IMG/VR virus record: IMGVR_UViG_3300009093_000034
Location: 30,632 to 94,631 of that record
Strand: one strand, 5' to 3'
Source: a virus
DNA length: 64,000 nucleotides
The notes under the pieces were generated by a model. It was not told where the DNA came from. It did not search any database and was given only the letters and a program-made list of their open reading frames with translations. Positions 3,488-63,854 of this stretch are shown piece by piece. The translations under genes and the position numbers were made by a program. How positions within the stretch are numbered: position 1 is the first letter of the stretch; each line of letters begins with the position of its first letter.

Positions 3488-5479
3488 ATGGGACAACTTC
3501 AGAGATTTAGAGAATCCTTCACCATGCAACAAGGTCAATTCGAAAGAATTCCTTTGACCGAAGCTCTCCAAGAAAAGTATCACATTCCTGAGACCGTCAA
3601 GAGACTTACTGAATCTACCAAATATCAAGAGGCTACGACTAGACTTGTTGAAAAGGCTTTCAAAGACCTTGAGGAATCAGGTACTTCAGTAGAACTTATC
3701 TCTAGATTACGAGAAGCTCTAAAAGTAACACTTCCTGAAAACAGGAACCTTTACAAGTTTCCAGTCTCAAAGTACGACAACCTAAACATCAACAAGCGCC
3801 GATACCCAAAGAAACTTTGGGAAAGAGTTATTCATGATCAAGAAGATCGTTGGAAAGGACTCTCAGGTCTTGCTGACCACCCATCTGACGATTCTGATGG
3901 AGAGTTCAAGAACTCATCTATCGTTTGGTTGGACATGGAGATCGACCCAAAAACTAACCTAGTTTGGGGTGTGGGTGTTTTTGTTGGTCCTTACGGAAGA
4001 CTTGCACAAGAGATCATTGACGTTGGTGGACGTGTTGGATTCAGCTCTTCAGGTTTTGGAGAGCTTGGTTATGACGGTGAGACCGTTGATCCAGAGTCCT
4101 ACATCATCGAGCGTGTTGCAGACCTAGTTCTAAACCCTTCTCAAGGTGTTTATGGTGCTTCTGACAACAACTTGAATGTAGAGTACTCGTCTCAGAAACC
4201 TGTTAAAGAAAATTCTACTAATTCTCTAGAAACCCTTTCTCGGGTGGAGGAAAAACACCGAATGTCTGAACAAACTAAACCTGCTATTAGCAAGATCGAG
4301 GAGAAGAAGTTCCGAAGAGACGTTGAGTCTCTCTTGAACGACGCTTCTAAGTTAGCCGACCCTCAGGTTCGTCTTGTAGAACTCACAGAGATCCTCGACG
4401 CCTTTGAGGAAGGAATTGCTCCTGATCTTAGAGAAAAGGTTGAGACCGAGATCTTAGCTGAGAAGCTCAAGATCGAGACCATGCTTCGTGAAACAAGCGA
4501 GACCCTTTCCGCTTTTGGAGCTACTAGCCCTGATGCTATCAAGGCCGGAGTTGCTCTTCTTGCCGAAGAGGTTAACCTAGTCGCTGCTGAGGCAAAAGAC
4601 TGGGAGAAGATCGCTATTGCCCTAAGAGACAGCAACAAGTCTCTTAAGGAAGAGAACCAGAAGCTCTCTGCAGAGCTTTCTATCCGTCCTTCTGTTGATG
4701 CTTTCGGAAAACTCACTGAGAAGGTCAAGGTTCTTGAAGAACAAAAGCACAAGTTCGCTACTAAGTATCTTCAGGAAGCTGAAGAAGAGAACGAAACATC
4801 AGAAGAGATGGAAAAGAAGATGGAGTCTCTTAACAATGAGATCTCTGGTCTTAAGTCCAAGATTCTTGAGTTCGTCTCCCAAGAGAAGAAGTTCGCTTCT
4901 GCTCATGCTGCCGAGATCACCGAGTCCAAGAAAGAAGTTGAGTCAGCTAAGAAGTTGGCCGAGGAATCTAAGCTTGCTCTAGAAGAAGCCGAGACCACCA
5001 TCGACCTTCAGGAACAACAGATCACCAGACTTCAGAACAGTCTCAAGGAAACTAGAGTCGCTGCTCAGAAGCTTGAGGAAGAATACGTAAACTTCCAGAA
5101 TCAAGTTAAGCTTGAGAGTGCACCTCCTAAGATCGTTCCTCGCTTTGAGGAGAGAGTCAATGGACTCTTGAACTTCAGAGAGAACAACGGTGTTGAAGTT
5201 GAAGCTCTTTGGCAGACCTTGACCGATCGTCACGGTTCTGCTATTAAGCCTTTTGAGAAGAACATCAGAGGAGCCAAGACCATCAGAGAGGCTACCTCAG
5301 CTTACTACCGAGCACTTCCTGAGTTTGAAGAGAACAACATCGCTCTTCACGAAGCTGAACTTCCAGATTCTACCTCTGTTACCAGACAAGAAAGAGTTGA
5401 GATGTTCGAGCGCCAAGGTGTTAAGTTTGGTGGAAAGACCTTGATCGACAGAGTCCTTGAGAGAAAGGGCTACCAGTAA
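3488..5479 (+). CDS. coiled-coil scaffold-like protein (possible prohead protease-scaffold fusion)
   Basis: 663 aa. The C-terminal ~400 aa are heptad-rich and Glu/Lys-rich, resembling phage scaffolding proteins. A globular N-terminal domain carries the GFSSSGFG motif. The gene is positioned just before the capsid gene. Confidence 0.5.
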   Translation: MGQLQRFRESFTMQQGQFERIPLTEALQEKYHIPETVKRLTESTKYQEATTRLVEKAFKDLEESGTSVELISRLREALKVTLPENRNLYKFPVSKYDNLNINKRRYPKKLWERVIHDQEDRWKGLSGLADHPSDDSDGEFKNSSIVWLDMEIDPKTNLVWGVGVFVGPYGRLAQEIIDVGGRVGFSSSGFGELGYDGETVDPESYIIERVADLVLNPSQGVYGASDNNLNVEYSSQKPVKENSTNSLETLSRVEEKHRMSEQTKPAISKIEEKKFRRDVESLLNDASKLADPQVRLVELTEILDAFEEGIAPDLREKVETEILAEKLKIETMLRETSETLSAFGATSPDAIKAGVALLAEEVNLVAAEAKDWEKIAIALRDSNKSLKEENQKLSAELSIRPSVDAFGKLTEKVKVLEEQKHKFATKYLQEAEEENETSEEMEKKMESLNNEISGLKSKILEFVSQEKKFASAHAAEITESKKEVESAKKLAEESKLALEEAETTIDLQEQQITRLQNSLKETRVAAQKLEEEYVNFQNQVKLESAPPKIVPRFEERVNGLLNFRENNGVEVEALWQTLTDRHGSAIKPFEKNIRGAKTIREATSAYYRALPEFEENNIALHEAELPDSTSVTRQERVEMFERQGVKFGGKTLIDRVLERKGYQ

Positions 5480-5568: not shown

Positions 5569-7083
5569 ATGATGCAAAAGAAAGCTTCATCATTCGATGA
5601 ACTCTGGGACAGGGTTTACTCACAGTACCAAGAAGACGCTGCCATAGAGCTCGGACACAACCCTCAAGCAAAACCTGGGGATGAAGAAGCTACCGCTTGG
5701 TTCAGAAACACGAAGAACGGGCAGTATGACATCCCAAGCTCTGAGAACTACATCAAGACCGTTGCCAATCAATTGAAGATGGGTCCAACCCCTTTGCCAC
5801 AAGACTTTGTGGCCTTTCTTAACTCTGCTGTCAAGCAATTTGGTCCTCAGATGCCTGATGTCATTGTTTATGACCAGTTAGACCAAAAGACCATCAACAA
5901 CATCAACTCAAGATTCCCTAATTTCTTCATCACAAGTGTCGTTCAGATCAAGGACCATAACACAGGAAAACCTGTTGGTGTTTGGGGAGTCTTCAAACCT
6001 TCTAGCAACGCTACCGCAGCTTATGACAACACTAGAGTCATGAAAAGACTTGACACCATGAAAGAAGCCGGAGGCCCTTTGAGCATTGGAAACAGCTTCT
6101 TAGGTTCACTCTATGGTGCAGCAGGAAACATGATCACCAAAGGTGTTGGAAAGCTCTTCAATAAAGACGCAAGCAAGCCAACCACTCCAGTCAGTCCTCA
6201 ACCTCAACAAGTCTCTACTGCTCAACAAACCGACAACCCAGCTTCTCCTAACAGACCTGGTATCTCCGTCCAAGGTGTGACCGCTGGTCCTGAAGAGTAC
6301 CAGAAGGTTGATCAACTTGTTCAAGCTTTGATCAAGACCTTTGGTTCTCAACCAAAGAAAGAAGACTTGTCCTCTGAAGCCAGAGAGTTCATCAAGGCTT
6401 ATGGTCTTGAAAAGATGTTTGAAGCAGACCTTCGTTCTGGTCTTCAAAGTGTCCAGACCTTCTTAAGAACCCTTCAGGGAAAAGGAAGCTCTCAAAAGTG
6501 GGGACTTCAAGATTTCCAGAACCTCTCCACTCTTCTTGATGATCCAGATGTTCAAGCTCTTCTAAAACAAAAGAAGATCGTCTCAAACTTGAACAAAGCT
6601 GACTTCCAGATCTTGATTCAAACTGTTGAACAAAAGACCGGTAAAGATCAAGGCAACAAACAGAACCAAGCCATCAAAACAAGCTCAGACCCTAGAGTTG
6701 TGGCAGCTGGATACACGGATCTCTTCAAGAAACTCGCTATGGATCCAAAAGCCAAAGGTGAAGCCGTCAATCTTTGGAGAGCTAACCACCAATCTACAGA
6801 TTTAACCACTTGGTCTGTTAATGACCTCAAGACAATCGACAACTTAGCTGCAACCTTCTTAGGTCCTAACATGGTGATCAACGCTAATCTAGTTAAGAAC
6901 TCTGAGAACCCATCTTTGACTCTTGGTGGAAAACAAGTTCAATCAGCACCTGTTCCACAAGCAACTCCAGGAGCAAATAAAGCTACAGTTGATGCCATTA
7001 CTAAATACATGAATACACATAAGATGATAGCTGCAGACAAAGAAGCCTTTTCTAGAGTTCTTAGATTGTTGAAATCTAATTAA
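5569..7083 (+). CDS. hypothetical head-module protein
   Basis: 504 aa ORF between the scaffold-like and capsid genes. It has a Pro/Gln-rich linker and no recognisable catalytic motifs. Confidence 0.45.
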   Translation: MMQKKASSFDELWDRVYSQYQEDAAIELGHNPQAKPGDEEATAWFRNTKNGQYDIPSSENYIKTVANQLKMGPTPLPQDFVAFLNSAVKQFGPQMPDVIVYDQLDQKTINNINSRFPNFFITSVVQIKDHNTGKPVGVWGVFKPSSNATAAYDNTRVMKRLDTMKEAGGPLSIGNSFLGSLYGAAGNMITKGVGKLFNKDASKPTTPVSPQPQQVSTAQQTDNPASPNRPGISVQGVTAGPEEYQKVDQLVQALIKTFGSQPKKEDLSSEAREFIKAYGLEKMFEADLRSGLQSVQTFLRTLQGKGSSQKWGLQDFQNLSTLLDDPDVQALLKQKKIVSNLNKADFQILIQTVEQKTGKDQGNKQNQAIKTSSDPRVVAAGYTDLFKKLAMDPKAKGEAVNLWRANHQSTDLTTWSVNDLKTIDNLAATFLGPNMVINANLVKNSENPSLTLGGKQVQSAPVPQATPGANKATVDAITKYMNTHKMIAADKEAFSRVLRLLKSN

Positions 7084-7315
7084 AATAGAAGAGTTTTTAT
7101 CTTTTTCGAAAGCTGCTACTAACTTATCAGGATTAGCGATACTAACTAAATCGTAAGCTAATAATTCGGCTTTATATGCCGAGAATTGATAATGGGATAC
7201 CTTAAACTGCCCAACAACGGATCTGTCAACAACATATGGACAACGAGAATTGCCGGATGTGCTTCGAGTCACTTTTACTCAGACGTTTTTACAATACACG
7301 CAAAAGGAAAACATT

Positions 7316-9094
7316 ATGTCAGGTGGAATCACCGGAAGAATGAACAGCGAATTGCGCGAAGCTATCACTGATAAGCTTTACCGCGATGAGCGCTCCTACC
7401 GCGACGACAAGCTCGTTGAAAAGTGGAACAGAATTCCCGAGGTAGGAAAGAATATTAAGAAGCTCGACGAAGGAACCGCAAGGCTCTTGGCTCGTCACTT
7501 GGAAAACCAAGCTCGCTTCATGGGTCGCTTGACTGAGGCCCAACTCTCTAGCGGATTCCAGGGTTTCTCCCCTGAGAACATGCTTCGTTTGGTTCGTTTG
7601 GCATACCCAAACACCATCAGAAACAAGCTCTTCACCGAGTTCGCAATGGAATCCGCAAAGGACTCCATCAAGTATATCCGCCCTGTCTACACCACCACCG
7701 CTAACGGTCAGAACTTGAACGATCGTACCTTCGGTGTTCCTGGTTGGTCAAACGCTGGCGATGCCTACGATCCTGCCGATCCTTGGAACCTTAACGGTTC
7801 GAACGACATCAACAACAGCGACTACCGCAGAGCAATGTACGAAACCAACGAAGATCGTTACACCAACCCAATGGCTAACGCTCTTGTTGCAACTTTCGAC
7901 GGAACTCACACTTGGACCGTTTACGACTCTGTTAAGGCAGTTCAGACGTTCTCTGCCGTTACCGACACATCAGCTGTTGCTAACGTTGGTGGAACCACTC
8001 TAACCCTTAACACCACCGGAACTTGGGTCATCTATGGTACTCTTACCATCGGTACCACCCACGCCGCAGTCGGTTCTTCTGCCTTCTCTCTCGGCTACGT
8101 CGATGGATACGCTTCTCTCTTCACTGCAGCAGACAGCTATCCTCCTTCCGCCGGAACTGGTTGGCACCTTCAGGAGCAGAACGTCATCGCTACTCAGAAC
8201 AAGACTGGCGCTGCTCTCTCCGTTAACGGATCTTGGATGATCAAGTCTGGATCCACTCTCACCATCACCGCAACCTCCCTCGTTGGTGTGTTCGCTCTCG
8301 GTGGTGCAGATGCCGCAAACGTCCGCGGTGGTTATGGCCGTTTTAACCCAGAAGGTGACTTCCAGGGTAACTTCCTTGGTGAAGTTGAGTTGATCATGAC
8401 CGACTACTGGTTCAGACCACAGCCAACTACCATTGGTGTTACGTGGAGCCAGTTGACCGAGCTTGTTCTCGACACCTCCTTCGGAGTTGCCGCTGAGGAG
8501 CTCTTGGTTGACTACGCTGGCCAGGAAATCAAGAGATCTCTCGACGTTCGCGCCGTAAAGATCGCTTACCAAGCCGCCAAGATGAACCCAAGCTACTACA
8601 CGATCACCTTTGATGCATCCTCTGGAAATAGCACGGACGACTCTTACCTCTCTACCGCTCAGACCTTCACTCAGGCTATCGCCCGTGTTGCAGACGTTCA
8701 ATTGAACGATATCAACCGTGGTGGAGTTAGCCGAATGGTTGGTGGACCTGCAGCAATGACTTACCTCCGCATGGTCGGTGGTTTCTCTGCTAAGGGCCAG
8801 ATGACCCCAGTCGGTGGTCACCAGATTGGAGAGCTTCAGGGCATTCCATTGTTCAAGGTTCCTTCTAACGTCATCCCTGATGACGAGATCCTTTGTGTTT
8901 GGAAGAACGACGAGAACGAGGCAGACGTTGCAGTTGCCTTCGGTACCTTGGTTCCTTTCTTCAGCACTGGTATCATCCAGAGGAAGAACTTCTACAAGGA
9001 AGCAGGTCTTTCGACCTACGGTGACTGGAACGTTCTAAACAGACGTTACCTTGGTCTTATCAAGATCACCGGTCTCCGCCAGCTCCAGAACTAA
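7316..9094 (+). CDS. major capsid protein, T4 gp23-like
   Basis: 593 aa. An ATG with an AAAAGGAAAA RBS lies inside the longer tracked ORF. The N-terminal region LVRLAYPNTIRNKLFTEF parallels T4 gp23 MVRRAIPNLIAFDI. ENQ and K..L.A.Y blocks are also shared with gp23. A strong terminator follows the gene. Confidence 0.7.
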   Translation: MSGGITGRMNSELREAITDKLYRDERSYRDDKLVEKWNRIPEVGKNIKKLDEGTARLLARHLENQARFMGRLTEAQLSSGFQGFSPENMLRLVRLAYPNTIRNKLFTEFAMESAKDSIKYIRPVYTTTANGQNLNDRTFGVPGWSNAGDAYDPADPWNLNGSNDINNSDYRRAMYETNEDRYTNPMANALVATFDGTHTWTVYDSVKAVQTFSAVTDTSAVANVGGTTLTLNTTGTWVIYGTLTIGTTHAAVGSSAFSLGYVDGYASLFTAADSYPPSAGTGWHLQEQNVIATQNKTGAALSVNGSWMIKSGSTLTITATSLVGVFALGGADAANVRGGYGRFNPEGDFQGNFLGEVELIMTDYWFRPQPTTIGVTWSQLTELVLDTSFGVAAEELLVDYAGQEIKRSLDVRAVKIAYQAAKMNPSYYTITFDASSGNSTDDSYLSTAQTFTQAIARVADVQLNDINRGGVSRMVGGPAAMTYLRMVGGFSAKGQMTPVGGHQIGELQGIPLFKVPSNVIPDDEILCVWKNDENEADVAVAFGTLVPFFSTGIIQRKNFYKEAGLSTYGDWNVLNRRYLGLIKITGLRQLQN

Positions 9095-9120
9095 TCTAGA
9101 CTAGATTCTTAAGTCAAGAA

Positions 9121-9150
9121 AAACCCTCTCGAAAGAGAGGGTTTTTTATT
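9121..9150 (+). terminator. rho-independent terminator after capsid gene
   Basis: ACCCTCTC-GAAA-GAGAGGGT hairpin followed by TTTTTTATTTT. Confidence 0.8.
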
Positions 9151-9176
9151 TTATACTTAGACATAAGGAAAACTAT

Positions 9177-9707
9177 ATGACACACTACTTCAGCACAGAA
9201 GATCTAGAACGACTCATGATGAATCAGATCCAATACCAAAAGGATCTAGATGAAGAATTTAAGGTTCCTCTTCTTGACATTGGTTCAACTCTTGAACGTC
9301 ACCTTCGAAGCATTGAGATCCCATCGGATAGAGTCAAGATCTTGGTGATGAACACCTCTGTTGAGAAGTTCACCATCAACAACACTGAGGTGATCATCCA
9401 TGCAAAGCCGATCCCAACTCTGGAGTCAAAGGATCTCGAGTTCTTTCCAGAGCAAAAGAGATACATTGAAGAAAACATTCAAGACGTGTTTGATACTCTG
9501 ACAGAGTTCGACTTCTTGGTCTTCGGTCTTTTCATCCCATATGTGTTGAATGGAACCATGACTTGGAACACTGACATCAATGAACAACCTAACGCTCTTA
9601 AGACCTCAGCCTTCTTGGGAGGTTACATGGTCTTAACCACAAAGACATCTCCTTACTCGTTGGATGCTTACTCCAAGGAATGGAGAAAGATGCTTGACAA
9701 TAGTTAG
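9177..9707 (+). CDS. short capsid-termini-like paralog 1
   Basis: 176 aa. The N-terminus NQIQYQKDLDE and the C-terminal LVFGLFIPYVLNG motif echo the MCP termini. It has an RBS AAGGAAAA. Confidence 0.5.
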   Translation: MTHYFSTEDLERLMMNQIQYQKDLDEEFKVPLLDIGSTLERHLRSIEIPSDRVKILVMNTSVEKFTINNTEVIIHAKPIPTLESKDLEFFPEQKRYIEENIQDVFDTLTEFDFLVFGLFIPYVLNGTMTWNTDINEQPNALKTSAFLGGYMVLTTKTSPYSLDAYSKEWRKMLDNS

Positions 9708-9736
9708 GTTTATACTATGTTGATTAGGAGATCCTT

Positions 9737-10279
9737 ATGATCGAAGTTCCAGAAACAGAACTCTATGGAATGTTTCAAAACCAACTTAAGTTCCAAGAAA
9801 GACTTCCTGAGACTAACACTTTTCTAAAGTTCCTTCCTCCGATCGATGTGGGAACTAAGATTAGAAAGGTCTTTGGAACTCTAAATGTTCCTGAGAATAC
9901 TAAAATCATCTCTTTGGATACAGCCAAAGCTGCCTATTCTTACAAAAAAGATGCTCTAGATAAAGCTCTTTTCTTTCCAGAAGAAGGAGATTCTGTCTAC
10001 TACTTCAGAGTTAGACCAATCTCCTTACTAGGTGAAGTTTACACCCATCCTTCAGATCAAGAAAGAGACTTTTTCTTAGATTTCAAGAACAATCTAGAAA
10101 ACTTCATTAACGAGATCTCAAACAAAACAAATGATCCTTCTAAAAAGATAGTTCTAGGAATTCTAGTTCCATTCTTCCTTACTGGAGCTATTCAAAGAGA
10201 GAACTTCTTCAAGGACTCTCAATTGGCTCTGTATGGGGATTGGACCACTATTGATGTTCAGGTAAAATCAGATGATTGA
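9737..10279 (+). CDS. short capsid-termini-like paralog 2
   Basis: 180 aa. The C-terminus LGILVPFFLTGAIQRENFFKDSQLALYGDW is nearly identical in pattern to the MCP C-terminus FGTLVPFFSTGIIQRKNFYKEAGLSTYGDW. Confidence 0.55.
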   Translation: MIEVPETELYGMFQNQLKFQERLPETNTFLKFLPPIDVGTKIRKVFGTLNVPENTKIISLDTAKAAYSYKKDALDKALFFPEEGDSVYYFRVRPISLLGEVYTHPSDQERDFFLDFKNNLENFINEISNKTNDPSKKIVLGILVPFFLTGAIQRENFFKDSQLALYGDWTTIDVQVKSDD

Positions 10280-10778
10280 AGAGACTTTGATAAAGGTGAT
10301 CTCCCAATCTCAGCTTGATCAACTTTACGAGAACCAAAAAAACTATTACTACACCCTAAACGACCATCATCCTTTGGTAGATGCTCTCCCTCTCTATAAG
10401 GTCAAAGAAGCCTTGGAACAAGTCTTTCAAGGTCTCAATGTTCCAAATAATGTTGATTTTCATGTTGTAAGTAACCCAAACGGATTGAATGATCCAGGAG
10501 ATTGGTACAACTATGATAGGTTTACCGATGAAGGAGAGAAGGTCTCAGTTCAATATTGGTTTAGACTTTATCCTGGAAAGGTCATAGTAGAGTTGACTCC
10601 ATCGTTCTTAGATGATTACAAGAAAGAGTTTCAGAACTACATCAACAAGAACTTAGCAGAGATTAAGAGATGGCATCCTAGAAAAAAGATGGTCATGACG
10701 ATTGCCATTTGGATTCCTTTCTGGTTTAACACTTCAAGTAGAAATGTGAACTTGTTCGGCGACCATCTCATTCATTAA
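10272..10778 (+). CDS. short capsid-termini-like paralog 3
   Basis: 168 aa. It carries an N-terminal ENQ motif and a C-terminal IWIPFWFNTSSRNVNLFGD motif. Confidence 0.5.
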   Translation: MIEETLIKVISQSQLDQLYENQKNYYYTLNDHHPLVDALPLYKVKEALEQVFQGLNVPNNVDFHVVSNPNGLNDPGDWYNYDRFTDEGEKVSVQYWFRLYPGKVIVELTPSFLDDYKKEFQNYINKNLAEIKRWHPRKKMVMTIAIWIPFWFNTSSRNVNLFGDHLIH

Positions 10779-10787
10779 GGAAAAAGT

Positions 10788-11741
10788 ATGAAACTATCTT
10801 ATGAACAAAAGATTCAAATCTTAATTGATAATCAACTAAAGTACATGAAAACTCTTAAAGACGAAGACAAGAAACGTTTTCCCTTTAAAGAAGAACATGT
10901 AGAAAAGATGGTAAGAACCATCTTCAAAGAAGATGGTGTGATCAATCAAATGTTTGATTGGACAACTTCTCCTGTAGGAGAACCATTAACCACAGATTAC
11001 CTGGTAACATCTATGTCTGGTCCAGAAGATGGGATTCCAGAAGTTACTCTTGATATAAAAACCCATACGTTCACAAAGGGTCATCATTCTTATCTAGTAA
11101 CATCGTCATCTAAACTTGACGAGATTAAAGAAAGTATGAAAATATGGGGAGAAGAAGTTCTTATTCAGATTGTAGCTGAAGCACTACGAAACAGTTTAGG
11201 GTCTCGTTTCATCAAAGAGATTCAAAAAATCATTGAGTTGAATCCTTATTACAAAAGCCTATTTGATATACCTTTCTCTATAGAAGAGACAGAGGGAAGA
11301 TCGTTTGTTAAATCGGTAGACGTTTCATTCGTTCAAAATTATGTTCATGCTGAAGCAAGTATGTACAGACAACTCACTAGAGGTGGAGTTACTCATATTT
11401 TATCAGGTGTTTTAATGGATTCTTATTGGAGAGTCCACCAGCAATTTGATTGGAGATCTGCTACTCAACCAGTTTTTATTCATAGAACGGGATCTATCCA
11501 AGGAATCCAGATGTGGAGAGGCCCAAAACATCTTATTGAAGAAAGTTCTGGTTATTTTCTTTGGAAAAATCCAGATATAGAAGAAGATAAGCTAATGACT
11601 CTCGCTATTCAAACCCCTTTTATTTTAAGTAACAGATCAAACGATTTCTCTTCTAACGAGTTCTTCTTTGACGGAGACTTAGTAGTCTTTCAACCAGGAT
11701 ACGTAAGAGAGATTAAACTCTTAGGTTTGCCATCCATCTAA
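10788..11741 (+). CDS. capsid-termini-like paralog 4 (longer)
   Basis: 317 aa. The N-terminus has IDNQLKYMKTL and the C-terminus has LAIQTPFILSNRSNDFSSNEFFFDGD. Confidence 0.5.
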   Translation: MKLSYEQKIQILIDNQLKYMKTLKDEDKKRFPFKEEHVEKMVRTIFKEDGVINQMFDWTTSPVGEPLTTDYLVTSMSGPEDGIPEVTLDIKTHTFTKGHHSYLVTSSSKLDEIKESMKIWGEEVLIQIVAEALRNSLGSRFIKEIQKIIELNPYYKSLFDIPFSIEETEGRSFVKSVDVSFVQNYVHAEASMYRQLTRGGVTHILSGVLMDSYWRVHQQFDWRSATQPVFIHRTGSIQGIQMWRGPKHLIEESSGYFLWKNPDIEEDKLMTLAIQTPFILSNRSNDFSSNEFFFDGDLVVFQPGYVREIKLLGLPSI

Positions 11742-11758
11742 CTATTAACTAATTTAAC

Positions 11759-12010
11759 ATGCCACTAAAACCTCGAATCGGTGTCCACTACGAAAGCATC
11801 AGGCCACAAGAAACCGCTGAGATGGCCATTCAACGACTTAAGATCAGACCTAAGGATTGGGTCATTCTTCCTATCATCAAACTTTCTGGATCTCAAAAGA
11901 TCCTTCCACTTAAGTTCTCAGGTATCTCAGACTCGATGACTAAGATCGAAGGACCTGGTTTTATCATTGAAAAAATGTACGATCTTTTGACTAAATCCCA
12001 AATCTCTTAA
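11759..12010 (+). CDS. hypothetical protein
   Basis: 83 aa ORF in the + strand array. Confidence 0.4.
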   Translation: MPLKPRIGVHYESIRPQETAEMAIQRLKIRPKDWVILPIIKLSGSQKILPLKFSGISDSMTKIEGPGFIIEKMYDLLTKSQIS

Positions 12011-12028: not shown

Positions 12029-12331
12029 GTGAACATGATCGGAAAACTGATTGGTGGTGTGGTCCTCGTGATCATCGCTGCTATTCTGTTCTGGCTGATT
12101 TGGGGTCTTCTGACCCCCTGGATCGTCAATTCCATCCCCGCTGGGGAGTGGAAAGCTTTCATGGGTGTGGTGGTCACCATCGTCGTGGGTTGGTTTGGAG
12201 GAATCGTTCTTCCTCTGGTCCCCCTGATTGCTGGTATCGTCTTCATCTTCAAGTTCTTCGGTCAGGCTTTTGCCTTGGCCACCGGTTCGAACATCGGTAA
12301 GTATCGTTACCGTGGTCGTCCCTACCAGTAA
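12029..12331 (+). CDS. GC-rich membrane protein (promoter-gene-terminator cassette)
   Basis: 100 aa with three hydrophobic helices. Codon usage is markedly GC-richer than the neighbours. The likely ATG is at 12035. Confidence 0.5.
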   Translation: MNMIGKLIGGVVLVIIAAILFWLIWGLLTPWIVNSIPAGEWKAFMGVVVTIVVGWFGGIVLPLVPLIAGIVFIFKFFGQAFALATGSNIGKYRYRGRPYQ

Positions 12332-12350
12332 GAACTTTCAGTTTTGTTAA

Positions 12351-12380
12351 AGATCCTCCCGAAAGGGAGGATTTTTTATT
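12351..12380 (+). terminator. rho-independent terminator
   Basis: ATCCTCCC-GAAA-GGGAGGAT hairpin followed by TTTTTTATT. Confidence 0.8.
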
Positions 12381-13630: not shown

Positions 13631-14122
13631 ATGAAAAAATTTATCTTCCTCGATATTGACGGAGTTCTCGCAACCACTTGGCACAAACGCCTTGAGGATG
13701 GAGAGCTCTGTTTCAATGAGGCACCAGTCAGAAACTTTAACGATCTTTGTACGGCGGTACCTGATGCAAAGATCATCATCACCTCAACATGGCGTCTTGG
13801 TAGAACTGTTGATGAGTTGAGAGCTATCTTCAAGTTTAGAGGTTTTCTTTATCCTGAGAGGATCATCGATAAAACTCTCAGATTCTTCTACAACTACGAC
13901 CTCAGCGATGGAACCTCTGCATCTAAAGGAGTTCCTAGAGGTGTTGAGATCGCTCATTGGATGGATCATCATCTCATTGATGAGGATGAGATCTCCTACT
14001 TGATTCTTGATGACGACTCAGACATGATGCTCCGTCAAGGCAACCATTTCCTTCGAACCAATAGTTCTAGAGGTTTGACTTCGACAAACGTCAAAAGAGC
14101 GATTAAGATCCTAAATGGCTAG
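13631..14122 (+). CDS. HAD-like hydrolase (phosphatase/nucleotidase family)
   Basis: The N-terminal FIFLDIDGVLAT matches HAD motif I DxDG(T/V). Confidence 0.5.
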   Translation: MKKFIFLDIDGVLATTWHKRLEDGELCFNEAPVRNFNDLCTAVPDAKIIITSTWRLGRTVDELRAIFKFRGFLYPERIIDKTLRFFYNYDLSDGTSASKGVPRGVEIAHWMDHHLIDEDEISYLILDDDSDMMLRQGNHFLRTNSSRGLTSTNVKRAIKILNG

Positions 14123-15472: not shown

Positions 15473-15901
15473 ATGAGATTCACTCAAGAATGGTTTAGAA
15501 ACTCACCACAAGAAGAAGTCAAGCTATTGAATGGTGAGGAAGTTTGGGTCTGCGATTACAGATTCACCTCATTAGGCAACAAGCCTATTCGAGTCATTGT
15601 TCCGACTCTTTGTATCATCCACGTCAGTTTTTACGTGGACAAGTACTATCCTAGAGGAAACCCGATTCCTGTTGTAGAACTCAAGATCAAGAAGAACGGA
15701 AAAGATCTTAAGGTAGAAGACAACACAACGGCCTACAACAACTGGCTGAAGATCTTTAACGATGAACAAGAGTGCAGAGCTTTCTTCAGAGAACAAATGA
15801 CCGAAAACCTTGATGACCTAGACGAGTGGGAAAAAGGTCAGATAGAAAGAGCTGCAGAACTCAGAGCTACAATGCACAAGCTCCTAAAGGAACACGGATG
15901 A
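15473..15901 (+). CDS. hypothetical protein
   Basis: 142 aa. A 140-nt noncoding region containing inverted repeats lies upstream. Confidence 0.45.
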   Translation: MRFTQEWFRNSPQEEVKLLNGEEVWVCDYRFTSLGNKPIRVIVPTLCIIHVSFYVDKYYPRGNPIPVVELKIKKNGKDLKVEDNTTAYNNWLKIFNDEQECRAFFREQMTENLDDLDEWEKGQIERAAELRATMHKLLKEHG

Positions 15902-16698
15902 GCAACAAATTTAAGAACGATTCACTTGGAACAAGGATGAAGGAGAACTATGAGAACAGATCAAAGATCTTTCTCCCTCGTAGAACCTACATCATCCTTC
16001 GTGTGGATGGCAAAGCTTTTCACACATACACGCGTGGTCTATTAAGGCCTTTCGACCAGGGTTTGGTCGAAGACATGGACGCTACGGCAATCTACCTTTG
16101 CAAGAACATCATGGGTGCTCAGTTCGCCTATGTACAGTCTGACGAGATCTCTATTCTTCTCACAGACTTTGACACCAACGAGACCCAATCTTGGTTTGAC
16201 AACAATGTCCAGAAGCTTGCCTCAGTCTCTGCTTCTATGGCAACCTCAGCTTTCAACAAGGCCAGGATTTCAAGGTTCATGGCTACTACGACAGCAGTTC
16301 CTCTCGAGGATGCTGTGGACAAATTGACTTGGGCAGAGTTTGACTCTCGTGCCTTCCAGATCCCTCAGAAAGTTGAAGTAGAGAACTACTTCATCTGGCG
16401 TCAGCAGGATGCTACAAGAAACGCCATCTCCAGTGCTGCTCAATCTGTCTACTCCCACAAAGAACTTGAGGGAAAGTCTGGAGATGAGAAGCAAGAGATG
16501 ATGTTTCAGAGAGGCATCAACTTCAACGACTATGATCCTAAGTACAAAAGAGGTCGTTTGATCGTTACAGAAACTTTTCCAAGTATCTCAGTTACATCAG
16601 GTGACATGGCAATTAGAACAAAATGGGTCTCCACGGCCGCTCCTATCTTCACTCAAGATAGAGATGATCTCTCTGATAGAATTCCAGAAAGTAGGTAA
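15898..16698 (+). CDS. Thg1-like protein (tRNA-His guanylyltransferase family, 3'-5' nucleotidyltransferase)
   Basis: YIILRVDGKAFHTYT and YVQSDEISILL match the Thg1 hallmark blocks RIDGRxFHRF and QSDEYSF. The ATG at 15898 overlaps the upstream stop. Confidence 0.7.
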   Translation: MSNKFKNDSLGTRMKENYENRSKIFLPRRTYIILRVDGKAFHTYTRGLLRPFDQGLVEDMDATAIYLCKNIMGAQFAYVQSDEISILLTDFDTNETQSWFDNNVQKLASVSASMATSAFNKARISRFMATTTAVPLEDAVDKLTWAEFDSRAFQIPQKVEVENYFIWRQQDATRNAISSAAQSVYSHKELEGKSGDEKQEMMFQRGINFNDYDPKYKRGRLIVTETFPSISVTSGDMAIRTKWVSTAAPIFTQDRDDLSDRIPESR

Positions 16699-61972: not shown

Positions 61973-62210
61973 TATTTTCCTTCTTTATCAAAAGTAATAT
62001 ATAGACTAATGTGCAAATTTACTCACCAATGCAAATAAGAAAAAGTTAATATGGATTCCTAGATTGTTCATTTTGAACAGTGTGTAAAATGAGCAGCATA
62101 TATAAGAATCTAACATAATAAGAATCTTAGTACTTAGGGTCAAACCCGGATCAACAAGAGGTTGATTGGAGTTCATGAAGTTTTTACTGGACCATGTTAT
62201 ACTTGTTTGT

Positions 62211-63854
62211 ATGGCAAAAGAACTCCGATACTCAAACGATTCCAGACAACGCATGTTCAAGGGAGTTGACAAGCTTGCAAAAGCTGTCATGACGACTCTT
62301 GGCCCAAGAGGACGAACAGTCATCATTCAAAAGACCTTCGGGTCTCCTTTGATCACAAAGGACGGTGTGACCGTCGCTAGAGAAATAGAACTTCCAGATC
62401 CTTATGAGAACCTAGGTGCTCAGTTGATCAAGGAAGCTGCGATCAGAACTAATGATCTCGCAGGAGACGGTACCACAACGGCAACAACGTTGGCCTACTC
62501 CTTGATCAATCAAGGTCTTAAGAAGATCTCCGAGGGTTTTGACCCGATTGAGATCAAGAAAGGAATGGAAGAAGCTACTCTTAGAGCTCAGAAACACCTT
62601 CAGTCTTTTAAGATGGATGTTCAGGATACCAAAGACATCAGGCATGTTGCAACCATCTCAGCCAACAACGATGCAGAACTTGGTGGCCTTCTGGCTGAAG
62701 CCTTTGATCACATTGGAAATGACGGAATTGTGACAGTAGAGGATTCTCCAAATCGACAGACCTTTGTCTCATATTCCGAAGGACTCGAGTATGATGAAGG
62801 ATACGCAACTCCGTTCATTATCAACGACCCTAGAGGAATTGTTACTTATCAGAACCCAAGGTTCTTGCTCATTGATAGTGAGCTGAACAGCTTTCACATC
62901 ATAGTCAAGATACTCGAGAAGTGGACGAGAGACGGTTGTAAGTATCCTTTCGTCATTGTTGCTACTGGGTTTTCTAACGAAGTTCTGACGACTATCGGTC
63001 AGAATGTTCAAGGTGGAAAAAGACCTATAGCTTGTTTCAAAGCTCCAGGTTTTGGAGAGAAGAAACAGGTTTACTTGAAGGACTTGGCTGCTGCTTTGGG
63101 AGCATCCATCTTTACACAACAAGAGGTTGGTCTTCAACTAGCTCAGTTCCAAGAAGAACACCTTGGAAAAGCTGGTTCCTTGAAGCTTACCTCAAACAGA
63201 ACAACCATCGTTGATCCTAAGGGAGACGGAGAGGCATTTGAAAAACATGTTCAAGAACTTAGAGAGATGGAAGCAGAGTCTACTTCAGGCTTTGAAAAAG
63301 AACTTCTCCAAGAGCGACTCGCTAAACTCGCTGGTGGAGTTGCTGTGGTTCACGTTGGTGCTTCAACCGAAGTTGAACTCAAGGAAAAGAAACACAGGGT
63401 TGAAGACGCTCTGAATGCAACTAGAGCTGCTCTAGAAGAAGGTATTGTCATCGGTGGAGGAAACACACTCCTTAGAGTGGCAAAGCTTCTTTCTCAAAAC
63501 ATCAAGAACCTTGGATCACCAGGTTTTATGGCTGGTTACAACGCAGTGGTAAGAGGTCTTAGAGAACCATTCTATCAGATCGCTTATAACGCTGGAAAGT
63601 CTCTAGAAGATATCGTCGAAGCCGTTCCAATCATTACCAAGACTGGAAGCACCAACATGGGTTGGAACGCTTTGACTGATACCTTTGGAGACCTATATGA
63701 AGAGGGAGTTATCGACCCCATCAAGGTCACTCGATATGCCTTAGAACACGCAGCTTCTGTTGCTGCTATCTTCATGGTGGTTGAGTGTGCTATCATCGAT
63801 CAAGGAAACATCCGTGTCGTACCTAATGGCTCGGAGTTAATGGGAGAATTCTAA
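62211..63854 (+). CDS. groEL: GroEL/Cpn60 chaperonin homolog
   Basis: From the internal ATG at 62211: MAKELRYSNDSRQRMFKGVDKLAKAVMTTLGPRGRTVII...ITKDGVTVAREIEL...NDLAGDGTTTATTLA matches the GroEL N-terminus and the ATP-binding DGTTTAT block. Confidence 0.85.
   Translation: MAKELRYSNDSRQRMFKGVDKLAKAVMTTLGPRGRTVIIQKTFGSPLITKDGVTVAREIELPDPYENLGAQLIKEAAIRTNDLAGDGTTTATTLAYSLINQGLKKISEGFDPIEIKKGMEEATLRAQKHLQSFKMDVQDTKDIRHVATISANNDAELGGLLAEAFDHIGNDGIVTVEDSPNRQTFVSYSEGLEYDEGYATPFIINDPRGIVTYQNPRFLLIDSELNSFHIIVKILEKWTRDGCKYPFVIVATGFSNEVLTTIGQNVQGGKRPIACFKAPGFGEKKQVYLKDLAAALGASIFTQQEVGLQLAQFQEEHLGKAGSLKLTSNRTTIVDPKGDGEAFEKHVQELREMEAESTSGFEKELLQERLAKLAGGVAVVHVGASTEVELKEKKHRVEDALNATRAALEEGIVIGGGNTLLRVAKLLSQNIKNLGSPGFMAGYNAVVRGLREPFYQIAYNAGKSLEDIVEAVPIITKTGSTNMGWNALTDTFGDLYEEGVIDPIKVTRYALEHAASVAAIFMVVECAIIDQGNIRVVPNGSELMGEF

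What the first reader, a model, noticed from the sequence alone, without database searches (positions are those of the whole stretch)
9177..11741. Array of four short ORFs retaining only the N- and C-terminal motifs of the major capsid protein
Four consecutive ORFs of 176, 180, 168 and 317 aa lie immediately downstream of the gp23-like MCP. Each has an N-terminal (E/D)NQ-x-(K/Y) helix motif like the MCP N-terminal ENQARF. Each ends with a hydrophobic P-F-(F/I/W) ... (G/N) ... NF ... (Y)GD(W) block. In ORF 9737 this block is LVPFFLTGAIQRENFFK...LALYGDW, almost identical to the MCP C-terminus LVPFFSTGIIQRKNFYK...LSTYGDW. They look like mini-capsid proteins lacking the central domains. Possible roles are vertex or decoration subunits, prohead core components targeted via capsid-like termini, or assembly decoys. 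This is not the usual single gp24-type full-length paralog.
Basis: seen in the sequence. Interest (0 to 1): 0.75.

Follow-up and report, generated by a model that had tools for sequence, protein, structure and literature searches.

The report
Cut-down capsid-protein copies beside capsid gene
Next to the major capsid gene of a roughly 306-kb uncultured phage lie four fast-evolving, shortened copies of that gene; three keep only the pieces that, by alignment to phage T4, touch the scaffold and neighbouring capsomers, a kind of capsid-derived protein I found no description of.

Summary
The four ORFs (176, 180, 168, 317 aa) exist as described, and their resemblance to the major capsid protein (MCP, 7316-9094) is significant. 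D (10788-11741) is a nearly complete MCP paralogue. It lacks only MCP residues 1-49 and the ~215-aa insertion domain, and it sits where T4 has gp24. A, B and C form one family of "mini-MCPs". They keep four MCP blocks in the same order as in the MCP: propeptide helix (NQ motif), N-arm, a central "YWFRPxP" strand, and the C-terminal hairpin that aligns with the T4 gp23 P loop. They have no room for the axial (A) domain. A search of 1.84 billion representative proteins found eight family members, all 139-190 aa, with no Pfam, PHROG or NCBIfam family. B, C and D are under purifying selection but change 8-18 times faster than the MCP. They are absent next to the MCP in 32 related loci. Structure prediction failed, so function is inferred. 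Best reading: accessory head-assembly or minor capsid proteins that dock through retained MCP contact elements, with D a candidate vertex protein. An immune-decoy role is not excluded.

The parts
3488..5479 (+). Context: prohead protease (T4 gp21-like N-terminal domain) fused to a long scaffold-like tail rich in charged residues.
   Evidence: A profile of 15 homologues against T4 gp21 gives hhalign probability 85%, E 6.8e-6. GLADHP aligns with ELNHP and FSSSG with VSSRG; from my own knowledge these hold the catalytic His and Ser. The Pfam Peptidase_S77 hit is weak (E 0.05).
7316..9094 (+). Major capsid protein (592 aa, T4 gp23 type), the parent of the paralogues. It contains a propeptide with ENQARF...RLTE|AQ, an N-arm, a ~215-aa insertion domain (about residues 130-350), and a C-terminal P-loop hairpin.
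   Evidence: Pfam Gp23 E 6e-6 and PHROG 138 E 5e-7. hhalign to T4 gp23 aligns ENQ, LTE|A and KNF. There are 66 related MCP loci.
9118..9147 (+). Strong intrinsic terminator, 24 nt after the MCP stop codon and 30 nt before ORF A.
   Evidence: 13-bp stem GAAAAACCCTCTC-GAAA-GAGAGGGTTTTTT followed by a T run. It is not conserved in the sister contig L002.
9177..9707 (+). ORF A (176 aa), the most diverged mini-MCP.
   Evidence: 29.2 bits against a B/C profile; 0 of 1000 shuffles reached it, best 10.8. It aligns collinearly with the family. Shine-Dalgarno site AAGGAAAA. L002 has no orthologue; a Lar-family gene sits there instead.
9737..10279 (+). ORF B (180 aa), the mini-MCP closest to the MCP.
   Evidence: The blocks below match the MCP. 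Its orthologue in L002 is 60% identical, with pN 0.27 against pS 0.76.
9737..9961 (+). B residues 1-75: N block (propeptide NQ helix plus N-arm).
   Evidence: Aligns to MCP 50-126, E 3.3e-5. Sub-blocks give P 7.5e-4 and 1.3e-3.
9983..10048 (+). B residues 83-104: central block 'YYFRVRPISLLG'. [quoted passage not shown]
   Evidence: Aligns to MCP 356-380, P 2.4e-5. The structural assignment is inferred from its position just after the insertion domain and from PMC9546572.
10118..10267 (+). B residues 128-177: C block, aligned with the P-loop hairpin of T4 gp23.
   Evidence: 46.7% identical to MCP 532-576. hhalign P 1.7e-13. The matching MCP segment aligns with T4 gp23 433-475, which holds the P-loop length mutations T457A, R460C and G461S.
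10272..10778 (+). ORF C (168 aa), a mini-MCP whose start overlaps the end of B by 8 nt.
   Evidence: B vs C: 27% identity over 170 aa, 49 bits. The L002 orthologue (197 aa) has the same 8-nt overlap with B'.
10788..11741 (+). ORF D (317 aa), an MCP paralogue that lacks the insertion domain. It is the candidate gp24-like (vertex) shell protein.
   Evidence: D 80-317 aligns to MCP 351-590 (probability 98.8%, E 1e-16) and D 1-56 to MCP 50-106 (P 0.003). It keeps the MCP-invariant motifs RGGV, WKN, PF and GD. The L002 orthologue is 48% identical.
11759..12010 (+). 83-aa ORF that follows D in both phages. It may belong to the same unit; no family match.
   Evidence: 62% identical orthologue after D' in L002, dN/dS 0.16. 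No family hits.
12349..12376 (+). Second strong terminator, closing the unit that runs from A to ORF 12029-12331.
   Evidence: 12-bp stem followed by a T run.

Best explanation
Origin (shown). The block 9177-11741 is a lineage-specific set of internally deleted copies of the major capsid gene. One ancestral copy lost the first ~50 codons. All copies, including the relatives found elsewhere, start about 12 residues before the NQ helix.

D (homology shown, role inferred). D also lost the surface insertion domain but keeps the rest of the core that aligns to the MCP. Given that homology and its position after the MCP, it most likely acts as a gp24-like shell protein, probably at the vertices.

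A, B and C (anatomy shown). These copies have also lost the axial (A) domain. What remains is:
1. the part of the propeptide that in T4 gp23 lies inside the prohead against the scaffolding core and ends at the protease site;
2. the N-arm;
3. the returning E-loop strand;
4. the hairpin that aligns with the T4 P loop, which joins three capsomers at the quasi-threefold axis.

Mechanism (inferred). A-C are low-abundance accessory head-assembly or minor capsid proteins. They are recruited to the scaffold and to capsomer edges or junctions by the same contacts the MCP uses. Some are probably trimmed by the gp21-like protease at the L-x-E site that several members retain. B, C and D probably act together, because their order and the 8-nt B/C start-stop overlap are kept in the sister phage.
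For: Derivation from the MCP:
- Four blocks each find their collinear partner in the MCP profile as top hit: P 7.5e-4, 1.3e-3, 2.4e-5 and 1.7e-13.
- D aligns with E 1e-16.
- Only about 27 residues lie between the central and C blocks of B, against about 155 in the MCP. An A domain cannot fit.

Real genes:
- B: pN 0.27 vs pS 0.76. C: 0.48 vs 0.75. D: 0.33 vs 0.78.
- Shine-Dalgarno sites are present.
- The B C block is conserved at the protein level only. Third-codon-position identity to the MCP is 29%, so this is long-term constraint, not recent gene conversion.
- Four further small relatives (144-190 aa) from other metagenomes keep the same blocks. P0011 carries 'NLTEAQ' and 'FRPRP'.

Mapping to T4:
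- ENQ, LTE|A and KNF align with gp23.
- gp23 is cleaved after residue 65. Its N region contacts the scaffold core. Length mutations sit in that N region (A66D, A94V, G97S) and in the P loop (T457A, R460C, G461S) (PMC9546572).

Context:
- A gp21-like protease is encoded upstream.
- The gene order resembles T4's 21-22-23-24.
- A terminator after the MCP and low GC3 in B (0.33) and D (0.28), against 0.58 for the MCP, fit low-copy products.
- The B/C overlap and the B-C-D-orf83 order are conserved in L002.
Against: - There is no expression, proteomic or structural evidence.
- The AlphaFold model of B is weak (pLDDT 57; the C block is below 50) and the model of D is unusable (pLDDT 35).
- The block is dispensable within the clade: 32 related loci with at least 2.5 kb downstream of the MCP lack it.
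- It evolves 8-18 times faster than the MCP in dN.
- ORF A is replaced by an anti-restriction gene in the sister contig.
- The visible flanks of the single-copy relatives on contigs L075-L079 (80-480 nt upstream) hold no MCP gene.
- These last four features also fit an arms-race gene.
- The Glu of the putative cleavage site is missing in B', C and P0010.
- In an assembled lattice the quasi-threefold site is already filled by three MCP P loops. A simple 'extra subunit' role is therefore geometrically unclear (my inference).
Confidence: 0.5

Rival explanations
1. Transient assembly regulators. A-C cap the free edges of MCP capsomers or compete for scaffold sites during prohead assembly. In this way they prevent aberrant polymerisation or set capsid size. 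They are then cleaved and leave, so they are not in the mature virion.
For: By alignment, the retained N and C blocks include the two T4 gp23 regions where head-length mutations cluster and where the scaffold core and neighbouring capsomers are contacted. A propeptide with an L-x-E site is kept in 6 of 11 members. A gp21-like protease is present. The proteins are acidic and soluble.
Against: Close relatives with similar MCPs (62-74% identity) assemble heads without them. The cleavage-site Glu is not universal. There is no direct evidence.
Confidence: 0.2
2. Capsid mimics used against host immunity. A-C display conserved MCP epitopes (the N-arm, which aligns with the T4 region I recall as Gol, and the P-loop hairpin) and soak up host sensors that trigger abortive infection on detecting the capsid protein.
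For: - Patchy distribution, rapid divergence and copy-number change.
- The neighbouring slot holds a Lar anti-restriction gene in L002.
- The single-copy relatives on L075-L079 have no MCP gene in the short flanks visible.
- Another phage of the clade carries unrelated small ORFs with MCP N-arm and E-loop pieces 26 kb from its MCP gene.
- Capsid-sensing defences exist: Lit/Gol (PMC3014915) and, by their titles and abstracts, PMC9712102 and PMC13581612.
Against: - A decoy would not obviously need the propeptide, four blocks in MCP order, or overlapping (coupled) expression with a near-complete MCP paralogue.
- The genes sit inside the head module on the late strand.
- No known anti-defence family matches.
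- The residue range of Gol is from my memory, not from a tool.
Confidence: 0.15
3. Weapons against related co-infecting phages. The mini-MCPs would be dominant-negative subunits that poison a competitor's capsid assembly, while the phage's own MCP tolerates them.
For: Fast evolution, accessory distribution and retention of the inter-subunit contact elements only.
Against: B's C block is no closer to its own MCP (47%) than to a relative's MCP (51%), so there is no sign of self/non-self discrimination. Late co-expression with the phage's own MCP would risk self-poisoning.
Confidence: 0.07
4. Decaying remnants of MCP duplications, for example by-products of the homing-endonuclease or intron activity seen in MCP genes of this clade, with no function.
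For: MCP genes in relatives are often interrupted or followed by duplicated 3' ends.
Against: - pN is well below pS in B, C and D.
- The reading frames are intact, with ribosome-binding sites, in two diverged phages.
- The same four-block architecture is kept in small proteins from four further sources.
- MCP-invariant residues in the C block (P547, F548, G552, D570) are retained in most members.
Confidence: 0.04

Closest known systems
T4 gp24 (head vertex protein, paralogue of gp23)
   Same: D is a diverged paralogue of the MCP (about 26% identity). It is encoded downstream of the MCP in a protease-scaffold-MCP module, keeps the part of the MCP that aligns to the HK97-type core, and has a short N-terminal propeptide-like segment.
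   Different: D lacks the insertion domain that gp24 has (PMC9546572). It shares with the MCP part of the long propeptide rather than a 10-residue one. It is absent from most relatives. A pentameric vertex location is untested. A-C have no counterpart in T4: T4 gp67 and gp68 show no similarity.
Family 4 ('A-domain') encapsulins
   Same: They are a precedent that the HK97 fold can be cut down to a sub-domain and persist as an independent small protein (PMC11664910).
   Different: Family 4 keeps only the A domain and forms dimers. The mini-MCPs keep the complementary parts (N-arm, E-loop strand, P-loop hairpin) and have no room for an A domain. There is no sequence relationship. The mini-MCPs are phage genes in a head module.
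T4 internal and core proteins with a capsid-targeting sequence (IPI-III, Alt, gp67, gp68)
   Same: These are small proteins delivered to the scaffolding core by an N-terminal peptide that the gp21 protease removes after Glu (PMC5694885). The mini-MCPs carry an N-terminal helix followed, in most members, by L-x-E, and a gp21-like protease is encoded nearby.
   Different: Here the N-terminal segment is homologous to the MCP's own propeptide, not to a generic tag. No other ORF in the window has it. The rest of the protein is also MCP-derived.
Capsid-size redirecting proteins of phage satellites (P4 Sid, SaPI CpmB, PICI Ccm) - from my own knowledge, not tested here
   Same: They are small proteins that act on a helper phage's capsid lattice through scaffold-like or MCP-like contacts to change assembly. 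As I recall, Ccm is itself an HK97-fold MCP homologue.
   Different: Those are encoded by satellites, not by the phage. None is known to be an A-domain-less MCP fragment. No homology was tested or found.

Membership tests
T4 gp23/gp24-type HK97-fold capsid proteins (Pfam Gp23, PF07068) | Sequence homology to the MCP across the spine helix, A domain and C-terminal P-domain strands | tested here: met
   Applies to D only. D 80-317 aligns to MCP 351-590, hhalign probability 98.8%, E 1e-16. The invariant motifs RGGV, WKN, PF and GD are kept.
T4 gp23/gp24-type HK97-fold capsid proteins (Pfam Gp23, PF07068) | Presence of the axial (A) domain between the spine helix and the C-terminal strands | tested here: not met
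   Applies to A, B and C. Only about 27 residues (one predicted helix) lie between the central and C blocks, against about 155 in the MCP. That helix has no match in the MCP (P 0.35).
T4 gp23/gp24-type HK97-fold capsid proteins (Pfam Gp23, PF07068) | Match to the curated family model | tested here: not met
   None of A-D hits Pfam Gp23, any PHROG head family or NCBIfam. The MCP itself passes only just, at 26.3 bits against a cut-off of 24.4.
T4 gp23/gp24-type HK97-fold capsid proteins (Pfam Gp23, PF07068) | HK97 fold in three dimensions | tested here: inconclusive
gp24-like vertex protein | MCP paralogue encoded next to the MCP in the head-morphogenesis module | tested here: met
   D lies 1.7 kb downstream of the MCP on the same strand, after a gp21-like protease/scaffold gene and the MCP. 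The T4 gene order was checked in L080.
gp24-like vertex protein | Forms pentamers at the eleven non-portal vertices | not testable with these tools
   This needs cryo-EM or virion proteomics with copy numbers.
Prohead proteins processed by a gp21-type (S77) protease | (L/I)-x-E cleavage motif at the end of an N-terminal propeptide | tested here: inconclusive
   The MCP clade has an invariant Glu in RLTE|AQ, aligned with T4 FLTE65|A66. In the same register, B, A, D', C', P0008 and P0011 have x-x-E. D has the Glu one residue later. B' and C have Asp. P0010 has neither.
Encapsulin Family 4 (A-domain-only HK97 truncation) | Retains only the A domain | tested here: not met
   The mini-MCPs retain the N-arm, E-loop strand and P-loop blocks and lack the A-domain region (definition from PMC11664910).
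Known anti-defence or defence families | Match to a curated model | tested here: not met
   No Pfam, PHROG or NCBIfam match for A-D. PADLOC was not run. The only anti-defence gene found nearby is the Lar homologue in L002.

The most novel reading that the evidence does not exclude
A, B and C are the first examples of a 'periphery-only' HK97-fold derivative: N-arm, E-loop strand and P-loop hairpin without an A domain. Such a protein could engage capsomer edges and the scaffolding core as a neighbouring MCP subunit would. This gives two novel readings. Either they are a phage-encoded trans-acting regulator of capsid geometry or size in a jumbo phage, or they are a capsid-mimic decoy against capsid-sensing immunity. 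The unrelated MCP-fragment ORFs in another member of the clade (L073) would make MCP mimicry a recurrent strategy in these phages.
Probability: 0.25. Interest if true: 0.85.

Novelty: new variant of a known kind. Interest (0 to 1): 0.6.

Why it matters
MCP paralogues are known mainly as full-length vertex proteins such as T4 gp24. This locus shows a graded series in one operon:
- the full MCP;
- a copy without the insertion domain (D);
- copies without the insertion and axial domains (A-C).

The shortest forms keep the segments that, by alignment to T4, contact the scaffold core and join capsomers, and where T4 head-length mutations map. If they act on assembly, they offer a natural handle on how very large HK97-type capsids control geometry, which remains an open question for jumbo phages. 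If they are decoys, they would be a new anti-defence principle, mimicry of the capsid protein. Either way they define a very rare protein family with no Pfam, PHROG or NCBIfam match: eight members among 1.84 billion representatives. They are also a complementary counterpart to the A-domain-only encapsulins.

Tried and rejected
- **Known families.** Pfam, PHROG and NCBIfam scans of A-D gave nothing.
- **Annotated phages.** Megablast of 7000-12000 found no match. tblastn of the MCP found one distant hit at 24.5% identity.
- **Solved structures.** Sequence searches of the PDB with the MCP and with a 30-sequence MCP profile gave no capsid hit.
- **Structure prediction and fold search.**
  - The AlphaFold models of B and D were too weak.
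- **More context for the distant relatives.**
  - Four IMG/VR scans with P0008-P0011, one with D and one with the family alignment found nothing.
  - Their own contigs are only 1-2.3 kb.
- **Generic capsid-targeting tag.** Rejected: an HMM of the N motif hits no other ORF in the window.
- **Recent gene conversion or a recombination cassette for the MCP C-terminus.** Rejected: DNA identity is 52% and third-position identity 29%.
- **Pseudogene remnants.** Disfavoured by pN well below pS and by conservation in other lineages.
- **Relationship to T4 core proteins.** gp67, gp68 and gp22 show none.
- **hhalign option.** A run with -glob against T4 gp23 gave a meaningless alignment. The local-mode run was used instead. 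Its middle part is unreliable, and only the terminal segments are used.
Full report
**1. What is there**

The window is part of a roughly 306-kb phage contig (ENA ERZ27252312, k141_4393686). The head module on the + strand reads as follows.
- ORF 3488-5479 (663 aa). Its N-terminal domain aligns with the T4 gp21 prohead protease: hhalign probability 85%, E 6.8e-6. GLADHP aligns with ELNHP and FSSSG with VSSRG, which from my own knowledge hold the catalytic His and Ser.
- ORF 5569-7083 (504 aa), with no family match.
- The major capsid protein (MCP), 7316-9094 (592 aa). It hits Pfam Gp23 at E 6e-6 and PHROG 138 at E 5e-7.
- The four ORFs of the finding: A 9177-9707, B 9737-10279, C 10272-10778 and D 10788-11741.
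- An 83-aa ORF, a 100-aa ORF rich in hydrophobic residues, and a second terminator.

A strong intrinsic terminator (13-bp stem plus T run) lies at 9118-9147, between the MCP and A. Another lies at 12349-12376. A, B and D have clear Shine-Dalgarno sites, and C overlaps the end of B by 8 nt. GC3 falls from 0.58 in the MCP to 0.33 in B and 0.28 in D.

**2. Is the similarity real?**

Yes.
- Pairwise BLASTP: MCP-D is 25.6% identical over 203 aa (71 bits). MCP-B is 46.7% over 45 aa (52 bits). B-C is 27% over 170 aa (49 bits).
- A has no significant direct similarity to the MCP. It scores 29.2 bits against a profile of B, C and their orthologues, while 1000 shuffles of A never exceeded 10.8. A is therefore a diverged member of the B/C family.
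- A 42-sequence MCP alignment was built from related metagenomic loci. Against it, the nine-member family profile gives two collinear alignments: B 80-177 to MCP 343-579 (probability 97%, E 5e-11) and B 1-75 to MCP 50-126 (probability 72%, E 3.3e-5).
- Cut into pieces, each block finds its collinear partner as top hit:

| Block | B residues | MCP residues | P |
|---|---|---|---|
| NQ helix | 3-28 | 52-77 | 7.5e-4 |
| N-arm | 39-74 | 74-125 | 1.3e-3 |
| Central 'YxFRxxP' strand | 83-104 | 356-380 | 2.4e-5 |
| C-terminal block | 128-177 | 530-579 | 1.7e-13 |
| Helix between central and C blocks | 105-132 | none | 0.35 |

**3. D is a different kind of thing from A-C**

D aligns end to end with the MCP. 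D 1-56 matches MCP 50-106 (P 0.003), and D 80-317 matches MCP 351-590 (probability 98.8%, E 1e-16). It lacks MCP residues 1-49 and the roughly 215-residue segment at MCP 130-350.

That segment sits where T4 gp23 has its insertion domain, between the two 'I-domain linkers' that are equivalent to the HK97 E-loop (PMC9546572; PMC11664910). D keeps the MCP-invariant motifs RGGV, WKN, PF and GD.

D is thus a near-complete capsid-shell paralogue downstream of the MCP, as gp24 is in T4 (gene order checked), but without the insertion domain.

A-C have only about 27 residues between the central and C blocks, where the MCP has about 155 (spine helix plus A domain). They cannot contain an A domain.

**4. 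What the retained blocks are**

A local hhalign of the MCP family against T4 gp23 is weak overall (P 0.0013), and its middle is unreliable. Its ends align identical landmarks:
- LVEKW with LLNKW, and ENQ with ENQ;
- RLTE|AQ with FLTE65|A66, the gp21 cleavage site (65 residues are removed, PMC9546572);
- MCP 86-127 with gp23 92-131;
- MCP 525-567 with gp23 433-475, including an identical KNF.

According to PMC9546572:
- The gp23 N region is inside the unexpanded head and probably contacts the scaffolding core. It later forms the inter-capsomer arm.
- The length mutations A66D, A94V and G97S map to that N region.
- T457A, R460C and G461S map to the P loop, where three capsomers meet at the quasi-threefold axis.

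By alignment, the N and C blocks of the mini-MCPs therefore correspond to the scaffold-contact region and the P-loop hairpin. [quoted passage not shown] That last assignment is my inference from position, not from a reliable alignment.

**5. Are they functional genes?**

One short contig from another sample (L002/L003, 3.2 kb) carries this order: MCP 3' end, a 77-aa ORF, B' (173 aa), C' (197 aa), D' (323 aa), and the 83-aa ORF.

Compared with the window:

| Gene | aa identity | pN or dN | pS or dS |
|---|---|---|---|
| MCP end | 94% | dN 0.043 | dS 0.55 |
| B | 60% | pN 0.27 | pS 0.76 |
| C | 30% | pN 0.48 | pS 0.75 |
| D | 48% | pN 0.33 | pS 0.78 |

This shows purifying selection, but with 8-18 times more amino-acid change than in the MCP. 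Synonymous sites are saturated in B, C and D although not in the MCP. That could reflect codon bias in the MCP or mosaic ancestry.

The B C block is only 52% identical to the MCP at the DNA level, with 29% identity at third positions. Its conservation is therefore selective, not recent gene conversion.

The 8-nt B/C overlap and the order B-C-D-orf83 are kept in L002. In place of A, L002 has a Lar-family restriction-alleviation gene (Pfam E 7e-11). L002 has no terminator after its MCP.

**6. Distribution**

- Word-indexed searches of 5.8 billion clusters found only the phage itself and the L002 lineage.
- An exhaustive HMMER search of 1.84 billion representatives with the family profile found eight proteins in all. 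Four were new: P0008 (190 aa, E 4e-17), P0009 (170 aa, E 4e-13), P0010 (144 aa, E 1e-4) and P0011 (161 aa, E 6e-4).
- All four are small and carry the same blocks. P0011 has 'NLTEAQ', 'FEAFETAKD', 'FRPRP' and 'LIPFFKTGVIQRK'.
- Their contigs are 1-2.3 kb. The visible flanks, 80-480 nt upstream, show no MCP gene.
- The scan with the MCP alignment returned 70 metagenomic loci (contigs up to 326 kb). Of these, 32 have at least 2.5 kb downstream of the MCP, representing about 30 distinct phages. None has a mini-MCP or a D-type paralogue.
- The position after the MCP is variable. It holds radical-SAM genes in L001, endonuclease-like ORFs in L008 and L010, and other genes elsewhere.
- Two further observations suggest that MCP-derived pieces recur in this clade.
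  - L040 has a 185-aa ORF beside its MCP, on the opposite strand, with an MCP-like propeptide. This is borderline.
  - The 295-kb contig of L061/L073 has three paralogous ORFs, 26 kb from its MCP gene. They carry its E-loop strand (37% over 38 aa) and its N-arm (61% over 31 aa).

**7. Structure**

AlphaFold with the shallow alignments gave a weak model for B: pLDDT 57.5 and pTM 0.59. It predicts helices at residues 6-22, 35-46, 63-75 and 108-131, and the C block is below pLDDT 50. The model for D was unusable at pLDDT 34.8.

**8. Interpretation**

Shown:
- The block is a set of internally deleted MCP paralogues under selection.
- A-C form a new, very rare family.
- D is a near-complete paralogue without the insertion domain.

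Inferred:
- D acts as a gp24-like shell or vertex protein.
- A-C are accessory head-assembly or minor capsid proteins that use MCP-type contacts (propeptide and N-arm to the scaffold core; E-loop strand and P-loop hairpin to capsomer edges).
- Several are probably trimmed by the gp21-like protease. L-x-E is in register in 6 of 11 members.

Low codon bias and the upstream terminator suggest low copy number.

Rivals remain open. A-C could be transient edge-capping or size regulators, capsid-mimic decoys for capsid-sensing immunity, or dominant-negative weapons against related phages. The patchy distribution, the rapid evolution and the neighbouring Lar gene keep the arms-race readings alive. Non-functional remnants are disfavoured.

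**9. Comparison with known systems**

D works like, and may be, a gp24-type paralogue, but its vertex location is untested. A-C fail the defining A-domain feature of HK97-type capsid proteins and match no curated family. The nearest conceptual precedent is the Family 4 encapsulins, which keep only the A domain (PMC11664910), the complementary truncation. Literature searches for MCP paralogues or truncated HK97 proteins in phages found no description of such proteins. The library is incomplete, so this is not proof of absence.

**10. Verdict**

This is a new variant of a known kind (capsid-protein paralogues). Its function is unresolved but testable. Interest 0.6.

Noticed in passing
window 62166-63854 (+): Phage-encoded GroEL-type chaperonin (PHROG 5725 E 9e-141; Pfam Cpn60_TCP1 E 2e-66). 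T4-type MCPs depend on GroEL for folding (my own knowledge), so a phage copy in the same genome as an expanded MCP family may be relevant.
   Followed up: partly
window 15826-16698 (+); L004 16162-16962: Thg1-like tRNA-His guanylyltransferase domain (PF04446) in the phage. A HAD_SAK_2 protein lies at 13631-14122.
   Followed up: no
L009, L039, L049, L070 (also L043, L045, L047, L048): In L009, L039, L049 and L070 the MCP gene is split into an 85-127-aa N part and a 385-460-aa C part, 1.3-1.6 kb apart, breaking near the invariant 'FTEFAME' codons. In the other four loci the match starts at about MCP residue 94-105. This suggests intron or homing-endonuclease insertions at the most conserved site of the gene.
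   Followed up: no
L010 11688-13522: A 550-aa ORF directly after the MCP is followed by a duplicated MCP 3' end ('DVQCLQPRYLGRIKITG', 76% identity over 25 aa). This looks like a mobile-element footprint.
   Followed up: partly
L002 382-615 (+): A Lar-family restriction-alleviation protein (PF14354, E 7e-11) sits between the MCP and B' in the sister contig, at the position ORF A occupies in the window.
   Followed up: yes
L073 8610-10351 (+); L074 2986-3894: In a 295-kb relative, three adjacent paralogous ORFs (130, 129 and 309 aa) share an 'ILDxxPDFFDGxxVDIGEE' motif. They carry pieces of that genome's own MCP: the E-loop strand at 37% over 38 aa and the N-arm at 61% over 31 aa. They lie 26 kb from the MCP gene. 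L074 has a 303-aa homologue.
   Followed up: partly
L073 5896-6798 (+): A flagellin-like ORF ('MVINHNLSAMYASRIENINSKNLQNTMERLSSGERINSAKDG...') in a jumbo-phage contig. This was judged by eye only; no family scan was run.
   Followed up: no
L040 11838-12392 (-): A 185-aa ORF next to the MCP on the opposite strand has an MCP-like propeptide ('LLNNQMQHLSRLTVAQ') and a C-terminal '...LLLWVSP...YWYGD'. It is a possible remote mini-MCP (MCP profile E 2e-4; N-motif HMM E 5e-3; family HMM E 0.05).
   Followed up: partly
L001/L038 12138-16657; L009 9892-11862: Large Cys-rich ORFs that look like radical-SAM proteins (judged by eye from CxxxCxxC-type motifs, no family scan) lie directly downstream of the MCP in the relatives with 62% MCP identity. 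The slot after the MCP appears to be a variable-gene hotspot.
   Followed up: no
window 8756-9091 vs 9737-11738, compared with L002: Synonymous divergence between the two phages is 0.55 in the MCP 3' end but saturated (pS about 0.75-0.78) in B, C and D. The cause could be strong codon bias in the MCP or a mosaic history in which the paralogue block and the MCP have different ancestries.
   Followed up: no
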